Sequence record: MT446416.1
Length of the DNA: 64,000 nt
Strand: one strand, 5' to 3'
DNA from: Escherichia virus TH47
Of this stretch, positions 37,762-40,114 are shown piece by piece. Numbering within the stretch: position 1 is the stretch's first letter; each line of letters opens with the position of its first letter. The translations under genes and the position numbers were made by a program. Below the pieces are notes generated by a model. It was not told the origin of the DNA. It saw only the letters and a list, made by a program, of their open reading frames with translations, and did no database searches.

Positions 37762-38600
37762 CTCACAAGGAGCCAGCACATTGTTGCTGGTTTTTTTTTT
37801 GGTTTTAAACTACAGAATTGATTGAATTGAATTTTGAAAGGAATTAATTATTTTATAGTGAACTCATCTAACTCATTTCATTCGTTAGCTGAAGAATATT
37901 CGTTACTACGTAACTCATATTCATTTCTTATAATTAATTATAAAGAACTTTAAAAGATTTAATACTTGACGGGATTTGTTGAAGACATTTTCATCCCCCC
38001 GCAGGGGAATGAAGACAATAAAAAAGAGACAATTAAGTCTCTTAATTCTTGACGCTGATGGTTTCAGCATTTATTGTATTGCGAATTTCTTAAAATTCAT
38101 TAAGAACGAAAGCGGGTTGCTCTGTTTCTCTCTATCGCAGTCATGTGCAACGGTCGTCAGTCTTAATCATCCTGACACTCACCTGAAAGTCTATACAATC
38201 AAACTTCAGGCTGTTTATTAAATCACTTAATAAACTCCCTTAGCAAATCTGGTAAGGTGCGATCCTTATACATCTATCGAGGAACTCTCTGTATGCTTAT
38301 CGGAGTTCTTTATTGAGCCGTGTCGCCGTGAGGGGTTCAAACTATGCCCACATCTAACGGGTTTCTTCTGCTCATCGCACTGTTGAACTGCTCATCTGCC
38401 ATCTACATTTTCGATAGGATCAGGTTCTAATTTATATGCATTTCTGCATTCAACAGGATTGTCATCACTACAATTAACATTATAGCACCAAATTCAAAAG
38501 TGTCTCACTATTATGGTAAAAAATTTATAAAAAGTACATAATTCTTGTTATCTGAAGTAACGCATAAATATTTTGATAAGAATTAGTTTAGTGGGGATTT
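37762..38600. other. about 840 bp noncoding, iteron-like region with hairpins (candidate origin, regulatory region or ncRNA locus)
   Basis: No plausible ORF (only a 81-codon TTG-initiated ORF without SD). Contains AACTCAT x3, ATTCGTTA x2, TTGAATTGAATT, CTGCTCATC x2, two TTGACG boxes and strong hairpins near 37989-38012 and 38283-38307. Confidence 0.5.
37770..37802 (+). terminator. rho-independent terminator
   Basis: CCAGCAcattgtTGCTGG followed by T11, just after the stop at 37761. Confidence 0.7.
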
Positions 38601-39095
38601 ATGAAGAAAAGATTAAAAGATAGTAAAGAAGCTGCAAACTATCGAAATGAATTACTAAAGAAGCAAAAAGGAATTGATCCTATAATTAAGGAACCAATAA
38701 CTAAGCCAGTACTTGATCACTATCACTTCGAGAATCAACACTGTCGCGGGGTACTCCAGAATGAGATAAACGCCTTTGAGGGTAAGGTTTCCAACGCATG
38801 GAACCGATATGGAAAGCATTTAACTGATATGCCATTACATGAAGTACTAAGAAATCTGGCAGATTATCTTGAAAAGAACAATAACATTCCACCTGAAGAG
38901 CAAGTCATACATCACACTGCACTAACTGTGGATGTTAATAAGTTTAAAAGGCTTCCAGCAACACAGCAAAACGCGATTCTGGAAGGGTTAGGAGTTGTCC
39001 CTGGTAGTAACGTCAAGGAGAGAACTAAGCAAGCCAGAAGGCTCATTAAGGACGGTAAATTAAATATGGTAGATGTAAAAAGAGATACAAAATGA
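38601..39095 (+). CDS. 49: endonuclease VII-like protein (gp49 family), lacking the canonical zinc-ligand Cys pairs
   Basis: LDHYHFENQHCRGVLQNEINAFEGKVSNAWNRYG...LHEVLRNLADYLEK aligns with T4 endo VII HLDHDHELNG...VRGLLCNLCNAAEGQMKHKFNRSG...YLEWLENLLTYLK; 164 aa versus 157 aa. Confidence 0.65.
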   Translation: MKKRLKDSKEAANYRNELLKKQKGIDPIIKEPITKPVLDHYHFENQHCRGVLQNEINAFEGKVSNAWNRYGKHLTDMPLHEVLRNLADYLEKNNNIPPEEQVIHHTALTVDVNKFKRLPATQQNAILEGLGVVPGSNVKERTKQARRLIKDGKLNMVDVKRDTK

Positions 39096-40114
39096 AAATA
39101 TCATTACCAAACGAAATAAACTTAAAACACATAAATTACAATACAAAAATGCCACAAGAATATTTTGATGATTTAAGTAAGAGATTATCAAAATATGACA
39201 TTATTTTTAATGGATTTATAATTGAAGATGAATGGAAAGGTAATAACACGTTAACTTCTATAGAATGTGAAGGAAACCTCTACAACAACTATCGAATTAA
39301 TAAATTATACAGATATATTAAACGTATGGATACAAAAGGATATCAGAAACCTAAAGGTTTTAACTTAACCCCTGAACTATTGGTACAAAACGTCAACGAT
39401 GAATGTATAAAACGTGGTGGTAAGATTGAATTTATTGGTTATAAACAATTTAATGGTGCAAAAACATATTTGGAATTGAAATGTAATGATTTGGAATCAC
39501 ATGATGAACCATATGAGTGGTGTTCAACGATTTATGATAGTTTTGTCGGAAACAATAGACATTTGAATGGTTGTCATAAATGTTCAGGTAGATATCATTA
39601 CACTATAGAAGAACTTAACAATAATATAAATTATTTTTGTGAAACACGTGGATTCGTAAACCCAGTATTGATAACTAATGAAACTATGAATGGTGTTAAT
39701 AGTATTGTTTCATTCACCTGTCATTGTGGTGAGAAAGCAACGATGACATATGATAGTTTATCACGTGCTCGTTTTTGTATATTATGCAGCGAAGGTAGTT
39801 ATAAACAATATATTCCTGGTTCATTGTATGTATTAGAAGTATATAAAAATGATAAACATGTGGCATATAAATTTGGTATATCAAACTATGTCCCAAAACG
39901 CCTCATGGAATATGGAAAATCTCCATGTAATGTTAAGATTATTCATCAATATGATTTTGAAGATGGTTCTATTCCATATAAAATTGAAAATAAAATAAAA
40001 AACTCATTACCAATCAGATATCTTACCAAAAATGAGTTCGGTGTAGGATATACAGAAACGATAGATACAACTTTATACGAAGATTTAATTAATATTATAA
40101 AAAAGGGAGCATAA
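39092..40114 (+). CDS. putative homing endonuclease-like protein (Cys-rich N-terminal region plus C-terminal T5orf172-like domain)
   Basis: 340 aa; C-terminus YKFGISNYVPKRLMEY...GYTETI parallels 27181..28179 and the T5orf172 pattern; multiple CxxC pairs; stop lies in the loop of a bidirectional terminator. Confidence 0.5.
   Translation: MKISLPNEINLKHINYNTKMPQEYFDDLSKRLSKYDIIFNGFIIEDEWKGNNTLTSIECEGNLYNNYRINKLYRYIKRMDTKGYQKPKGFNLTPELLVQNVNDECIKRGGKIEFIGYKQFNGAKTYLELKCNDLESHDEPYEWCSTIYDSFVGNNRHLNGCHKCSGRYHYTIEELNNNINYFCETRGFVNPVLITNETMNGVNSIVSFTCHCGEKATMTYDSLSRARFCILCSEGSYKQYIPGSLYVLEVYKNDKHVAYKFGISNYVPKRLMEYGKSPCNVKIIHQYDFEDGSIPYKIENKIKNSLPIRYLTKNEFGVGYTETIDTTLYEDLINIIKKGA

What the first reader, a model, noticed from the sequence alone, without database searches (positions are those of the whole stretch)
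37762..38600. About 840 bp gene-free region with iteron-like direct repeats and strong hairpins
Coding density is very high elsewhere, yet this stretch has no credible ORF. It carries AACTCAT x3 (37861-37918), ATTCGTTA x2, tandem TTGAATTGAATT, CTGCTCATC x2 (38368-38396), two TTGACG boxes and a GC-rich hairpin flanked by GAAGAC direct repeats (37981-38016). It sits between a strong terminator and the endonuclease VII-like gene. This architecture fits a replication origin or packaging-related site, or a structured ncRNA; I could not fold a canonical tRNA by eye.
Basis: seen in the sequence. Interest (0 to 1): 0.55.

Follow-up and report, generated by a model that had tools for sequence, protein, structure and literature searches.

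The report
New multi-copy structured RNA gene
The "empty" stretch holds a gene for a roughly 450-base, intricately folded non-coding RNA of an undescribed family; jumbo phages carry four or five copies, and small bacterial anti-phage islands carry one.

Summary
The gene-free gap is real. The short "iteron-like" repeats are all present but are no more frequent than chance. What matters is on the minus strand. A conserved promoter (TGAGACA-N15-TGcTATAAT, 38508-38479) drives a ~452-nt RNA (38471->38020). The RNA ends at a covarying hairpin plus U-run (38043-38020). Conserved elements follow: a GC hairpin and a repeated box.

The window belongs to an Asteriusvirus (Rak2-like jumbo phage, 99% identical to fEgEco12). 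Each related genome has 4-5 copies of this cassette, all on the same strand and 45-110 kb apart. They fall into five orthologous lineages shared across genera.

On 24 copies, 94.8% of cells in 108 proposed pairs are paired, against 36-47% in slid controls. 68 pairs show compensatory double changes, and one helix is a pseudoknot. There is no tRNA, no Rfam family and no conserved ORF.

The same cassette is a backbone part of rare integrative defence islands in E. coli, Citrobacter and other Enterobacteriaceae.

Function is inferred only. I favour an RNA that works through its fold, binding a conserved partner. Rivals are a transcription-primed replication origin and a cis-acting read-through or antitermination leader. 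I found no description of it in the searchable literature.

The parts
38501..38508 (-). -35-like element GTGAGACA of the phage promoter class TG[AG][AG]AC[AG]
   Evidence: The consensus scan finds GAGACA-16-TATAAT with TG (10 of 12) on the minus strand. Every copy examined elsewhere that reached this far has TGGAACA, TGGGACA, TGAAACA or a close variant (TGGATCG, CGGGACA) at the same distance. The class has 4 hits in the window, all on the minus strand. It resembles the TGAAACG/TATA promoter reported for CBB and GAP32 (PMC5259590).
38479..38487 (-). Extended -10 element TGCTATAAT
   Evidence: TATAAT is invariant in all copies; the preceding TGn is present in most and varies in some, e.g. TCC, ATG, TTG. 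Also found by the scan.
38020..38471 (-). Predicted ~452-nt structured non-coding RNA. The 5' end is inferred at about 7 nt after the -10 element; the 3' end is at the U-run.
   Evidence: Alignment A2 of 24 copies. 108 pairs in 20 helices, 94.8% of cells paired against 36-47% when slid, 68 pairs with double changes, and 0 of 500 shuffles reach the observed values on four of five measures, 2 of 500 on the fifth. No ORF. No Rfam or tRNA match.
38279..38425 (-). 5' domain of the RNA (helices H3, H5-H8).
   Evidence: Covariance model R2 hits it at 158.7 bits, the only hit in the window. Helices are listed.
38071..38213 (-). 3' core domain (helices H13-H19). It holds the most conserved stretch, GAUAGAGAGAAACAGAGCAACCCGCUUUCG.
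   Evidence: Covariance model R1 hits it at 131.4 bits, the only hit in the window. The 21-mer from this stretch recovers copies in IMG/VR, genomes and metagenomes.
38073..38199 (-). Pseudoknot helix H14. The loop of hairpin H13 (AUUGUAU, 38199-38193) pairs with AUACAAU (38079-38073).
   Evidence: 7 pairs, 4 of them with double changes, 99.4% of cells paired.
38049..38061 (-). Box 1 (RNA sense CCAUCAGCGUCAA), the 3' arm of a covarying hairpin just before the terminator.
   Evidence: Conserved in all copies. It changes together with Box 2.
38018..38043 (-). Intrinsic terminator: hairpin AAGAGAC-UUAAUU-GUCUCUU followed by a U-run.
   Evidence: Found by the scan. Helix 20 has 6 pairs, 5 with double changes, and the U6-7 run is invariant.
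37990..38013 (-). Conserved GC hairpin (RNA sense UUCAUUCCCC-UGC-GGGGGGAUGAA) directly after the U-run. No U-run follows it on either strand.
Evidence: Present in every copy aligned and in the representative copies of each paralog group and the E. coli island shown.
37966..37979 (-). Box 2 (RNA sense CAAAUCCCGUCAA), a direct repeat of Box 1.
   Evidence: It covaries with Box 1 as a direct repeat. Its role is unexplained.
37860..37925 (-). Degenerate remnant of the distal part of the cassette (GAGUU and AACGAA repeats).
   Evidence: In paralog loci this part continues into a covarying hairpin (TTGACATTC-GAA-GAATGGCAA) next to the ribosome-binding site of a downstream gene. At the window locus no downstream gene exists and the hairpin is lost.
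37767..37806 (+). Terminator of the convergent 69-codon ORF. It marks the boundary of the cassette and is not part of it.
   Evidence: Found by the scan on both strands. G17 and UE-S1 annotate a terminator here.

Best explanation
The gap holds an independent gene, on the minus strand, for a ~450-nt highly structured non-coding RNA of a family not yet described.

Shown or directly read from the sequence:
- A promoter of a phage-wide class: a TGAGACA -35-like element plus the extended -10 element TGcTATAAT.
- An RNA body of about 20 helices, including a pseudoknot, kept by compensatory changes.
- An intrinsic terminator.
- Conserved 3' elements after the terminator: a GC hairpin and a second copy of a CGUCA box.
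- The cassette is one of 4-5 ancient paralogs per Rak2-like jumbo phage genome.
- It is also a backbone part of small integrative defence islands of Enterobacteriaceae.

Inferred:
- Host sigma-70 RNA polymerase transcribes it without phage factors, because the extended -10 element is perfect.
- The RNA acts through its three-dimensional fold. I think it most likely acts as a scaffold or ribozyme-like RNA that binds one conserved partner, a protein complex or a small ligand. All paralogs and the island copies share the same invariant cores (about 0.45 for this mechanism).
- The Box1-terminator-GC hairpin-Box2 part sets 3'-end formation and how much transcription reads through into the next gene.
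For: Strand and gene limits:
- The promoter is conserved in every copy examined.
- The terminator hairpin covaries and its U-run is invariant.
- At pairs with compensatory changes, G-U pairs favour the minus sense 64 to 32.

Structure:
- 94.8% of cells are paired against 36-47% in slid controls.
- 68 of 108 pairs show double changes against 15-28 in slid controls.
- The covariation score is 0.44 against 0.05-0.08.
- The pseudoknot has 4 covarying pairs.

Family:
- 70 phage records match, all about 310-390 kb and Rak2-like, with 4-5 places each.
- 50 IMG/VR loci match.
- The copies form five orthologous lineages across genera.

Selection outside the phage:
- Island copies score 104-124 bits with both models.
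- They keep 86-92% of pairs, with 13-18 double changes relative to the window copy.

The RNA is needed for its own sake:
- The lineage at the window locus is kept in all genera although most members have no downstream gene.

Not coding. Not a known RNA.
Against: - There is no expression data for any Rak2-like coliphage, so the 5' and 3' ends and the very existence of the transcript are predictions.
- Single-sequence folding is only modestly better than shuffles (z = -2.2) and is equal on both strands.
- The consensus energy is similar for both strands. Strand choice therefore rests on the promoter, the terminator and a 2:1 G-U bias.
- A simple trans-acting RNA does not explain three things: the conserved sequence after the terminator, the co-varying direct repeats Box1 and Box2, and the even, co-oriented spacing of the copies.
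- No partner has been identified.
Confidence: 0.72

Rival explanations
1. Transcription-primed replication origin. The promoter fires and the structured RNA acts as a pre-primer or R-loop former. The analogy is with ColE1 RNA II, T4 oriF/oriG or the mitochondrial LSP-CSB primer (my knowledge of those systems). The U-run, the G-rich hairpin, Box 2 and the AT-rich stretch downstream would be where the RNA-DNA hybrid forms and DNA opens. The islands would carry one copy so that the jumbo phage replisome replicates them.
For: - There are 4-5 copies per ~350-kb genome, all on the same strand and 44-112 kb apart. Examples: Yen9-04 at 24.7, 93.4, 174.4, 260.6 and 334.9 kb; 121Q at 90, 193, 248 and 327 kb. 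By my calculation, the chance that 5 random points on a circle have a smallest gap this large is about 0.02.
- Conserved DNA continues past the terminator, with an AT-rich stretch.
- The cassette is the only jumbo-phage-like piece in islands that have an integrase and a cI/cro pair but no recognisable replication genes.
Against: - GC skew does not change sign across the cassette in 15 loci; the mean is +0.09 upstream and +0.12 downstream in RNA sense.
- An efficient-looking intrinsic terminator sits before the supposed hybrid zone.
- Short repeats are not above chance in the window, and no initiator gene is adjacent.
- Invariant junctions with covarying stems are what is expected of an RNA that binds a partner. 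A primer would only need to pair with DNA.
- Nearly all genes in these genomes are on one strand, so shared orientation is weak evidence.
Confidence: 0.18
2. Cis-acting leader. The RNA is the 5' part of a promoter-RNA-terminator-leader cassette and decides whether RNA polymerase stops at the U-run or reads on into the downstream gene(s). It could be a very large attenuator or riboswitch. It could also be a processive antitermination RNA in the manner of HK022 put or EAR (my knowledge of those systems). The five co-oriented cassettes would then act as loading stations for long transcription units.
For: - In four of the five paralog lineages and in the islands, a co-oriented gene starts about 150-200 nt after the terminator.
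- The intervening leader is conserved although the genes are unrelated. It ends in a covarying hairpin 10-20 nt before the ribosome-binding site.
- Box 2 can replace Box 1 in pairing with the 5' arm of the pre-terminator hairpin in most copies. Mean energies are -4.4 against -4.9 kcal/mol, with -2.4 for shuffled Box 2.
- All copies have the genome's main transcription direction.
Against: - At the window locus, and in its orthologs in GAP32, CBB and Munch, the cassette points at a convergent terminator with no gene to control. Yet the RNA is fully conserved there.
- In the window copy, Box 2 cannot replace Box 1 (-1.2 against -9.2 kcal/mol).
- Downstream genes share no function: ADP-ribosylglycohydrolase and several unknowns.
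- 450 nt is far larger than any known attenuator or antitermination RNA.
Confidence: 0.17
3. Iteron-type origin or packaging (pac) site made of the short direct repeats.
For: The repeats exist at the stated coordinates. The region is AT-rich and gene-free.
Against: - The repeats are at chance level, 7-9 nt long and irregularly spaced.
- AACTCAT and ATTCGTTA lie in the part of the cassette that is decaying at this locus.
- No initiator or terminase gene is adjacent.
- 4-5 dispersed copies do not fit the fixed genome ends with ~20-kb terminal repeats reported for these phages (PMC13070987; PMC5259590).
Confidence: 0.02
4. Small protein-coding genes, as annotated in some relatives (fEgEco12 g340 and g341; 'hypothetical protein' x2-5 in others).
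For: Several GenBank records call short CDSs here. The window has an 81-codon TTG-initiated ORF at 37976-38221 on the plus strand.
Against: No ORF is conserved in position or frame among 24 copies. 85% of indel runs break the frame. Substitutions follow base-pairing.
Confidence: 0.01

Closest known systems
Large 'ornate' bacterial and phage ncRNAs of unknown function (GOLLD, ROOL, OLE, raiA classes). What these classes are is from my own knowledge; the comparison itself was the Rfam scan.
   Same: Several hundred nucleotides long. Many covarying helices with invariant junctions and a pseudoknot. Carried by phages or mobile elements. An independent transcription unit. No known partner.
   Different: No match to any of 4227 Rfam models, even at E <= 10 on the 571-nt stretch. 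4-5 diverged paralogs per genome rather than one copy. Found in virulent enterobacterial jumbo phages and in defence islands. Has conserved elements after the terminator.
Transcript-primed origins: ColE1 RNA II, T4 oriF/oriG, T7 primary origin (own knowledge)
   Same: A promoter followed by a structured transcript several hundred nt long, then a G/C-rich element and AT-rich DNA. Several such sites per phage genome in T4.
   Different: A strong intrinsic terminator precedes the putative hybrid zone. Loops are invariant among paralogs, whereas in ColE1-type plasmids the loops diverge. No skew switch. No experimental origin data.
Processive antitermination RNAs (HK022 put, EAR) and terminator-based riboswitches or attenuators (own knowledge)
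   Same: Promoter-proximal structured RNA followed by a terminator and co-oriented genes. Possible alternative pairing (Box1/Box2).
   Different: 3-6 times larger. One conserved lineage has no downstream gene. Downstream genes are unrelated. No demonstrated antiterminator helix.
RNA-seq-defined lncRNAs of the related jumbo phage PA5oct (ncRNA001-004; PMC7318152)
   Same: ORF-free, actively transcribed regions of 236-619 nt in a phage related to the Rak2 group. ncRNA002 is 451 nt. Function unknown.
   Different: Neither covariance model (3' core R1, 5' domain R2) hits the three PA5oct ncRNA loci tested (ncRNA001, 002 and 004; ncRNA003 was not fetched) at E <= 1. No visible sequence similarity.
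Phage satellites and minimalist inducible islands that copy cis- or trans-acting elements of their helper (P4, PICI, PLE, PICMI; own knowledge)
   Same: The islands have an integrase, a cI/cro-like switch, variable defence cargo (retron II-A, SIR2, PDC-M45), no structural genes, and one element shared with a virulent phage group.
   Different: Nothing shows that these islands are induced, replicated or packaged by a jumbo phage. The shared element is an RNA cassette, not a known pac/cos site or origin.

Membership tests
tRNA / tmRNA | Cloverleaf or tmRNA fold detectable by ARAGORN | tested here: not met
   0 genes in the whole window and 0 in 24 related loci.
Any Rfam 15 family (including RNase P, 6S, group I/II introns, hammerhead, GOLLD, ROOL, HEARO, riboswitches) | Covariance-model score at or above the family's gathering score | tested here: not met
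   The best hits score 13-37 bits against thresholds of 39-99. They lie on terminator-like hairpins. The by-eye resemblances I noted to RNase P motifs and to CUGANGA hammerhead cores are not colinear and were not recovered.
Evolutionarily conserved structured RNA | Base pairs maintained by compensatory substitutions beyond controls | tested here: met
   94.8% paired against 36-47% slid. 68 pairs with double changes against 15-28. 0 of 500 shuffles reach the observed value on four of five measures, 2 of 500 on the fifth.
Independent sRNA-type transcription unit | Own promoter and own intrinsic terminator, conserved in homologs | tested here: met
   Promoter in every copy examined. Terminator helix covaries with an invariant U-run. 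In some paralog groups the pre-terminator hairpin plus U-run takes the terminator's place. Transcription itself was not testable.
Iteron-type replication origin | Three or more regularly spaced direct repeats of about 17-22 bp | tested here: not met
   Only 7-9-nt repeats with irregular spacing, and their number is at chance level.
Iteron-type replication origin | Adjacent initiator (Rep) gene | tested here: not met
   Neighbours are a baseplate protein (PF12322), a 69-codon ORF and endonuclease VII.
Transcript-primed (R-loop) origin | Promoter directing a transcript into an unwinding region | tested here: inconclusive
   A promoter and an AT-rich downstream stretch are present, but a terminator intervenes.
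Transcript-primed (R-loop) origin | Strand-composition switch or replication start at the site | tested here: not met
   GC skew has the same sign on both sides in 15 loci. This is a weak test for phages. Actual initiation is not testable here.
Packaging (pac/cos) site | A unique site tied to the genome ends and the terminase | tested here: not met
   4-5 dispersed copies per genome, while the ends are fixed ~20-kb direct terminal repeats. Cleavage is not testable.
Riboswitch / attenuator leader | Co-oriented downstream gene under the terminator's control | tested here: not met
   At the window locus the cassette faces a convergent ORF and terminator. The feature is met in four other paralog lineages and in the islands.
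Riboswitch / attenuator leader | Mutually exclusive terminator and antiterminator pairing | tested here: inconclusive
   Box 2 can replace Box 1 in most copies, but not in the window copy. No antiterminator that covaries with the terminator stem was found.
PA5oct lncRNAs | Detectable homology | tested here: not met
   No R1 or R2 hit at E <= 1 in loci L037-L039.
Protein-coding gene | ORF conserved in frame among homologs | tested here: not met

The most novel reading that the evidence does not exclude
This is a new class of large RNA that is a working part of the jumbo phage's own DNA replication or transcription machinery. For example, it could be an origin-specifying pre-primer or an RNA cofactor of a phage enzyme complex. 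Five dispersed, co-oriented genes would then be needed in cis. The small integrative defence islands would have copied it either to be replicated by the infecting jumbo phage (a satellite of a jumbo phage) or to jam the phage (an RNA decoy used as defence).
Probability: 0.25. Interest if true: 0.92.

Novelty: categorically new. Interest (0 to 1): 0.82.

Why it matters
Few large, complex-folded RNA classes are known, and each new one has opened new biochemistry. This one is as conserved as the phage's core genes. It is kept in five ancient copies in every Rak2-like jumbo phage examined, across phages of Escherichia, Salmonella, Klebsiella, Cronobacter, Erwinia, Pectobacterium, Serratia, Yersinia and Xanthomonas. 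Genome annotations have missed it or mislabelled it as 'hypothetical protein' or 'repeat_region'.

The same cassette is a backbone element of rare integrative islands that carry retrons, SIR2 proteins and other defence cargo. This links a virulent jumbo phage group to chromosomal islands through an RNA. It makes two open questions directly testable: how 350-kb phage genomes organise replication or transcription, and whether jumbo phages have satellites or RNA-based antagonists. The host is E. coli and the phages are in culture, so experiments are easy to set up.

Tried and rejected
- **tRNA/tmRNA**: none found.
- **Rfam**, at E <= 1 on 3.5 kb and E <= 10 on 571 nt: only noise. This rejected the by-eye resemblances I had noted to RNase P (ACAGAGCAACCCGC, CGACCGUUGCA) and to hammerhead CUGANGA cores, which are not colinear with those families.
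- **Homology to the PA5oct RNA-seq ncRNAs**: none detected.
- **Other copies in the window**: only one copy. None in the first 50 kb of fEgEco12.
- **Iteron significance**: chance level.
- **Coding potential**: none.
- **Strand from consensus folding energy alone**: undecided. It was settled by the promoter, the terminator and the G-U bias.
- **GC-skew test for an origin**: no switch.
- **'AAATTCTTTGACA' as a generic early promoter**: rejected. In the six sources scanned (L004, the window and four module loci of 12-14 kb) it occurs only next to the cassettes, and it is absent from the 50-kb early region of fEgEco12. Its spacing to the ribosome-binding site does not fit a -35 element.
- **Plasmids**: no copy.
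- **Island proteins orf118 and orf303 against 50,697 phages**: no match. The RNA cassette is therefore the only detectable link to phages among the island parts tested; the other backbone ORFs were not searched.
- **L067 and L068** from the genome scan: chance 21-mer matches.
- **Literature**: genome papers on CBB, phAPEC6, fEgEco12 and UE-S1 do not mention the element, and no transcriptome of a Rak2-like enterobacterial phage was found. The GAP32 and RaK2 genome papers could not be read.
Full report
**What the window is.** The region 37500-38900 matches 56 phage records. All are jumbo phages of the Rak2-like group: Asteriusvirus such as 121Q, PBECO4 and G17, plus Salmonella, Erwinia, Serratia, Cronobacter, Pectobacterium, Klebsiella and Xanthomonas phages. 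The closest is Escherichia phage fEgEco12, at 99.2% identity over the gap. In all of them the gap lies between a baseplate-hub gene plus a short ORF and the endonuclease VII gene (Pfam).

**Checking the observation.** The gap has no credible ORF. Their number is not unusual, however. There are 19 identical 8-mer pairs against 13.5 +/- 5.9 in simulated sequence of the same composition (p about 0.18), and the left 200 nt gives p about 0.07. There is no tRNA. No Rfam family comes near its threshold. The 'strong terminator' at 37767-37796 is real and works on both strands by the consensus scan.

**The decisive lead was conservation.** A sensitive search with the gap alone matched 70 records. In distant genera only a ~480-nt core (window 37947-38442) aligned, at 68-76% identity, and every genome had 4-5 matching places.
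- In some genomes the best match lay at a different locus, for example between an ADP-ribosylglycohydrolase gene and a hypothetical gene in Serratia phage BF, Xanthomonas phage XbC2 and Yersinia phage fHe-Yen9-04. It was again in a ~740-nt gene-free gap.
- A 21-mer from the most conserved stretch (window 38110-38130) gave 24 loci in IMG/VR.
- A second, independent pattern from the other half of the element gave 50 loci.
- From the contig coordinates, 121Q has copies near 90, 193, 248 and 327 kb. fHe-Yen9-04 has copies near 25, 93, 174, 261 and 335 kb. GAP32, CBB and BF have copies at equivalent places.
- All copies are on the same strand of their genome.
- The window itself holds exactly one copy.

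**Which strand, and where the gene starts and ends.** Read on the window's minus strand, every copy examined has TG[GA][GA]AC[AG], or a close variant, followed after 14-15 nt by TATAAT, which is usually preceded by TGn.
- In the window this is GTGAGACA at 38508-38501 and TGCTATAAT at 38487-38479. The consensus scan also finds it.
- The same promoter class occurs four times in the window, always on the minus strand.
- It resembles the 'divergent RpoD-like' TGAAACG/TATA promoter described for CBB and GAP32 (PMC5259590).
- About 450 nt downstream, the copies aligned in A2 have a hairpin whose stem covaries (GAGAC/GUCUC, GUAC.../...GUAC and others), followed by six or seven invariant U residues. 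In some paralog groups this hairpin is absent and the preceding hairpin plus U-run takes its place.
- At base pairs that show compensatory changes, G-U pairs favour the minus sense 64 to 32.
- Folding energies alone do not discriminate between the strands.
- I therefore place the RNA at 38471->38020 on the minus strand. The ends are inferred.

**Structure.** I tested a structure of 108 pairs in 20 helices on an alignment of 24 distinct copies (A2). The structure is the RNAalifold consensus plus one pseudoknot found by a covariation scan.
- 94.8% of cells are paired, against 35.5-47.4% when the 3' partners are slid by 1-3 columns.
- 68 pairs have changes on both sides, against 15-28 in the slid controls.
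- The covariation score is 0.44, against 0.05-0.08.
- None of 500 column shuffles reaches the observed values on four of the five measures; 2 of 500 reach it on the fifth.
- The pseudoknot pairs the loop of hairpin H13 (AUUGUAU, 38199-38193) with AUACAAU (38079-38073). It switches between UUGUAU/AUACAA, UCGAAU/AUUCGA, UCGCAU/AUGCGA and UCAUAU/AUAUGA.
- Unpaired columns are as conserved as paired ones: 45% against 41% are at least 95% conserved.
- No reading frame is conserved.
- The RNA is as conserved at the nucleotide level as the neighbouring core genes: 66-73%, against 67-71% for endonuclease VII and 62-65% for the hub gene.
- Optional hairpin modules are inserted at two points in some paralogs.

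**The cassette continues past the terminator.** In RNA sense, four elements follow in order:
1. Box 1 (A[U/C]C-NN-CGUCA[G/A]) lies just before the terminator. It is the 3' arm of a covarying hairpin.
2. After the U-run comes an always-present GC hairpin (UUCAUUCCCC-UGC-GGGGGGAUGAA, window 38013-37990).
3. Then comes Box 2, a direct repeat of Box 1 (window 37979-37966).
4. Then comes an AT-rich stretch with GAGUU and AACGAA repeats.

In most paralog loci a further covarying hairpin (UUGACAUUC-GAA-GAAUGGCAA, or UUAGACAAUC...GAUUGGCUAA) sits 10-20 nt before the ribosome-binding site of a co-oriented gene.

At this locus the cassette faces a convergent ORF, so there is no downstream gene.

Box 1 and Box 2 change together among paralogs. 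AUC/AUC switches to ACC/ACC in at least three lineages, and CGUCA becomes GUGUCA in both boxes in one lineage. In most copies Box 2 could replace Box 1 in its hairpin, but not in the window copy. I cannot explain this (notebook, 'unexplained').

**Evolution.** A neighbour-joining tree of 43 cassettes groups them by genomic position across genera. This gives five orthologous lineages, near 24-35, 93, 174, 259 and 335 kb. The window copy lies at the 174-kb (hub/endonuclease VII) position by synteny, although in the tree it groups with the Munch-like copies of that position rather than with the GAP32/CBB/BF copies. The paralogs therefore predate the split of these genera and have each been kept since. 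Downstream genes differ between lineages and have no common function.

**Copies outside phages.** A search of 5,426 complete E. coli genomes found the whole cassette in two chromosomes: promoter, RNA, terminator, GC hairpin and Box 2.
- It lies in a ~10.7-kb island between ffs and ybaA. The island has a tyrosine integrase split by IS3, hypothetical genes, a PDC-M45-type candidate defence system (DuOB, DUF488, mSLOG-DUF4326) and a resolvase.
- A scan of one genome per species found it in Citrobacter amalonaticus. Metagenomes and a protein-neighbour look-up found the same island type in other Enterobacteriaceae.
- The backbone of that island type is: large serine integrase, RNA cassette, orf165, cI-like S24 repressor, HTH_35 protein, orf186, orf118.
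- The cargo is variable: a type II-A retron and a SIR2 protein.
- These islands show no structural or recognisable replication genes.
- orf118 and orf303 have no match in 50,697 phage genomes.
- No plasmid carries the cassette.
- The island RNAs score 104-124 bits with both half-models. They keep 86-92% of the pairs, with 13-18 double compensatory changes relative to the window copy. The fold is therefore under selection there too.
- The E. coli island copy groups with the Asteriusvirus paralog at 248 kb.

**What it most likely does.**
- *Shown:* an RNA-level structure under strong selection, a conserved promoter and terminator, an ancient multi-copy family, and sharing with defence islands.
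- *Inferred:* the RNA works through its fold. All paralogs and the island copies share the same invariant cores, so I favour a scaffold or ribozyme-like RNA that binds one conserved partner. The 3' cassette would set end formation and read-through. I put this at about 0.45.
- *Rival 1, transcript-primed origin (about 0.18).* In favour: even, co-oriented spacing (smallest gap 44 kb among five copies in 354 kb, about 0.02 by chance by my calculation), conserved DNA after the terminator, and the islands' lack of replication genes. Against: no skew switch and a terminator in front of the supposed hybrid zone.
- *Rival 2, cis-acting read-through or antitermination leader (about 0.17).* In favour: the conserved leader up to the ribosome-binding site and the Box1/Box2 alternative pairing. 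Against: the fully conserved lineage without a downstream gene, which includes this window.
- Iterons, a pac site and small proteins are essentially excluded.

**Known or new.**
- No Rfam 15 family matches.
- The three RNA-seq-defined lncRNA loci tested in the related phage PA5oct (PMC7318152; ncRNA003 was not fetched) are not detectably homologous.
- Genome papers on CBB, phAPEC6, fEgEco12 and UE-S1 do not mention the element.
- No transcriptome of a Rak2-like enterobacterial phage turned up.
- GenBank records label parts of it 'hypothetical protein' or 'repeat_region'.
- Within the limits of the searchable library (the GAP32 and RaK2 genome papers could not be read), this is an undescribed RNA class.

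Noticed in passing
window 39092-40114 (+): A 340-codon ORF with a MUG113/T5orf172-type domain lies between endonuclease VII and the SbcC-like gene. It is absent from that position in fEgEco12, G17 and UE-S1. It looks like a homing-endonuclease-type insertion.
   Followed up: partly
L066 4958-15302 (E. coli NZ_AP027515.1), L070, L069, L091, L098/L099: A rare family of ~11-12-kb integrative islands in Enterobacteriaceae. The backbone is integrase, this RNA cassette, orf165, cI-like repressor, HTH_35 protein, orf186 and orf118. The defence cargo varies (retron II-A, SIR2 protein, PDC-M45). Integration sites differ (ffs/ybaA, ppdD/nadC, next to modC). orf165 has only 12 clusters among 5.8 billion proteins.
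   Followed up: partly
window 38049-38061 and 37966-37979; all cassettes: Box 1 and Box 2 are direct repeats flanking the terminator and the GC hairpin. They mutate together among paralogs. In some paralog groups the separate terminator hairpin is missing and the box spacing drops from 75-87 nt to 47-57 nt. I have no explanation.
   Followed up: partly
Alignment A2 columns ~326-370 and ~503-531 (e.g. L005, L007, L001): A recurring optional hairpin module (…UACAAUAUNGAUCCGUCYAAAAUU) is inserted at two different points of the RNA in different paralogs. UE-S1 has it where the window copy has none. It may be a small mobile or modular RNA element.
   Followed up: no
window 44234, 38507, 11416, 620 (all minus strand): Four matches to the promoter class TG[AG][AG]AC[AG]-N13-16-T[AG]nTATAAT, all on the genome's main coding strand. 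It is probably the phage's own class of host-RNAP promoters.
   Followed up: partly
window ~38564-38571 (+): CATAAATA, similar to the T4 late promoter TATAAATA and to the ATAAATA motif reported for CBB. It lies about 30 nt before the endonuclease VII start codon and is a possible late promoter.
   Followed up: no
L001 2322-2479 (UE-S1) and L003 1835-2222 (fEgEco12): Public records annotate a 'repeat_region' inside the RNA's 5' domain and two short hypothetical CDSs over the cassette. Both look like annotation artefacts.
   Followed up: partly
L037-L039 (Pseudomonas phage PA5oct): The RNA-seq-defined lncRNAs of this related jumbo phage are a separate, unexplained set. ncRNA002 is 451 nt with its own promoter-like and terminator-like ends. 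The three loci tested (ncRNA001, 002, 004) are not homologous to the family described here.
   Followed up: partly
L066 9960-10030: Three ATCGATCGTT-type repeats lie upstream of the island's 257-codon ORF. They may be an operator or an island origin.
   Followed up: no
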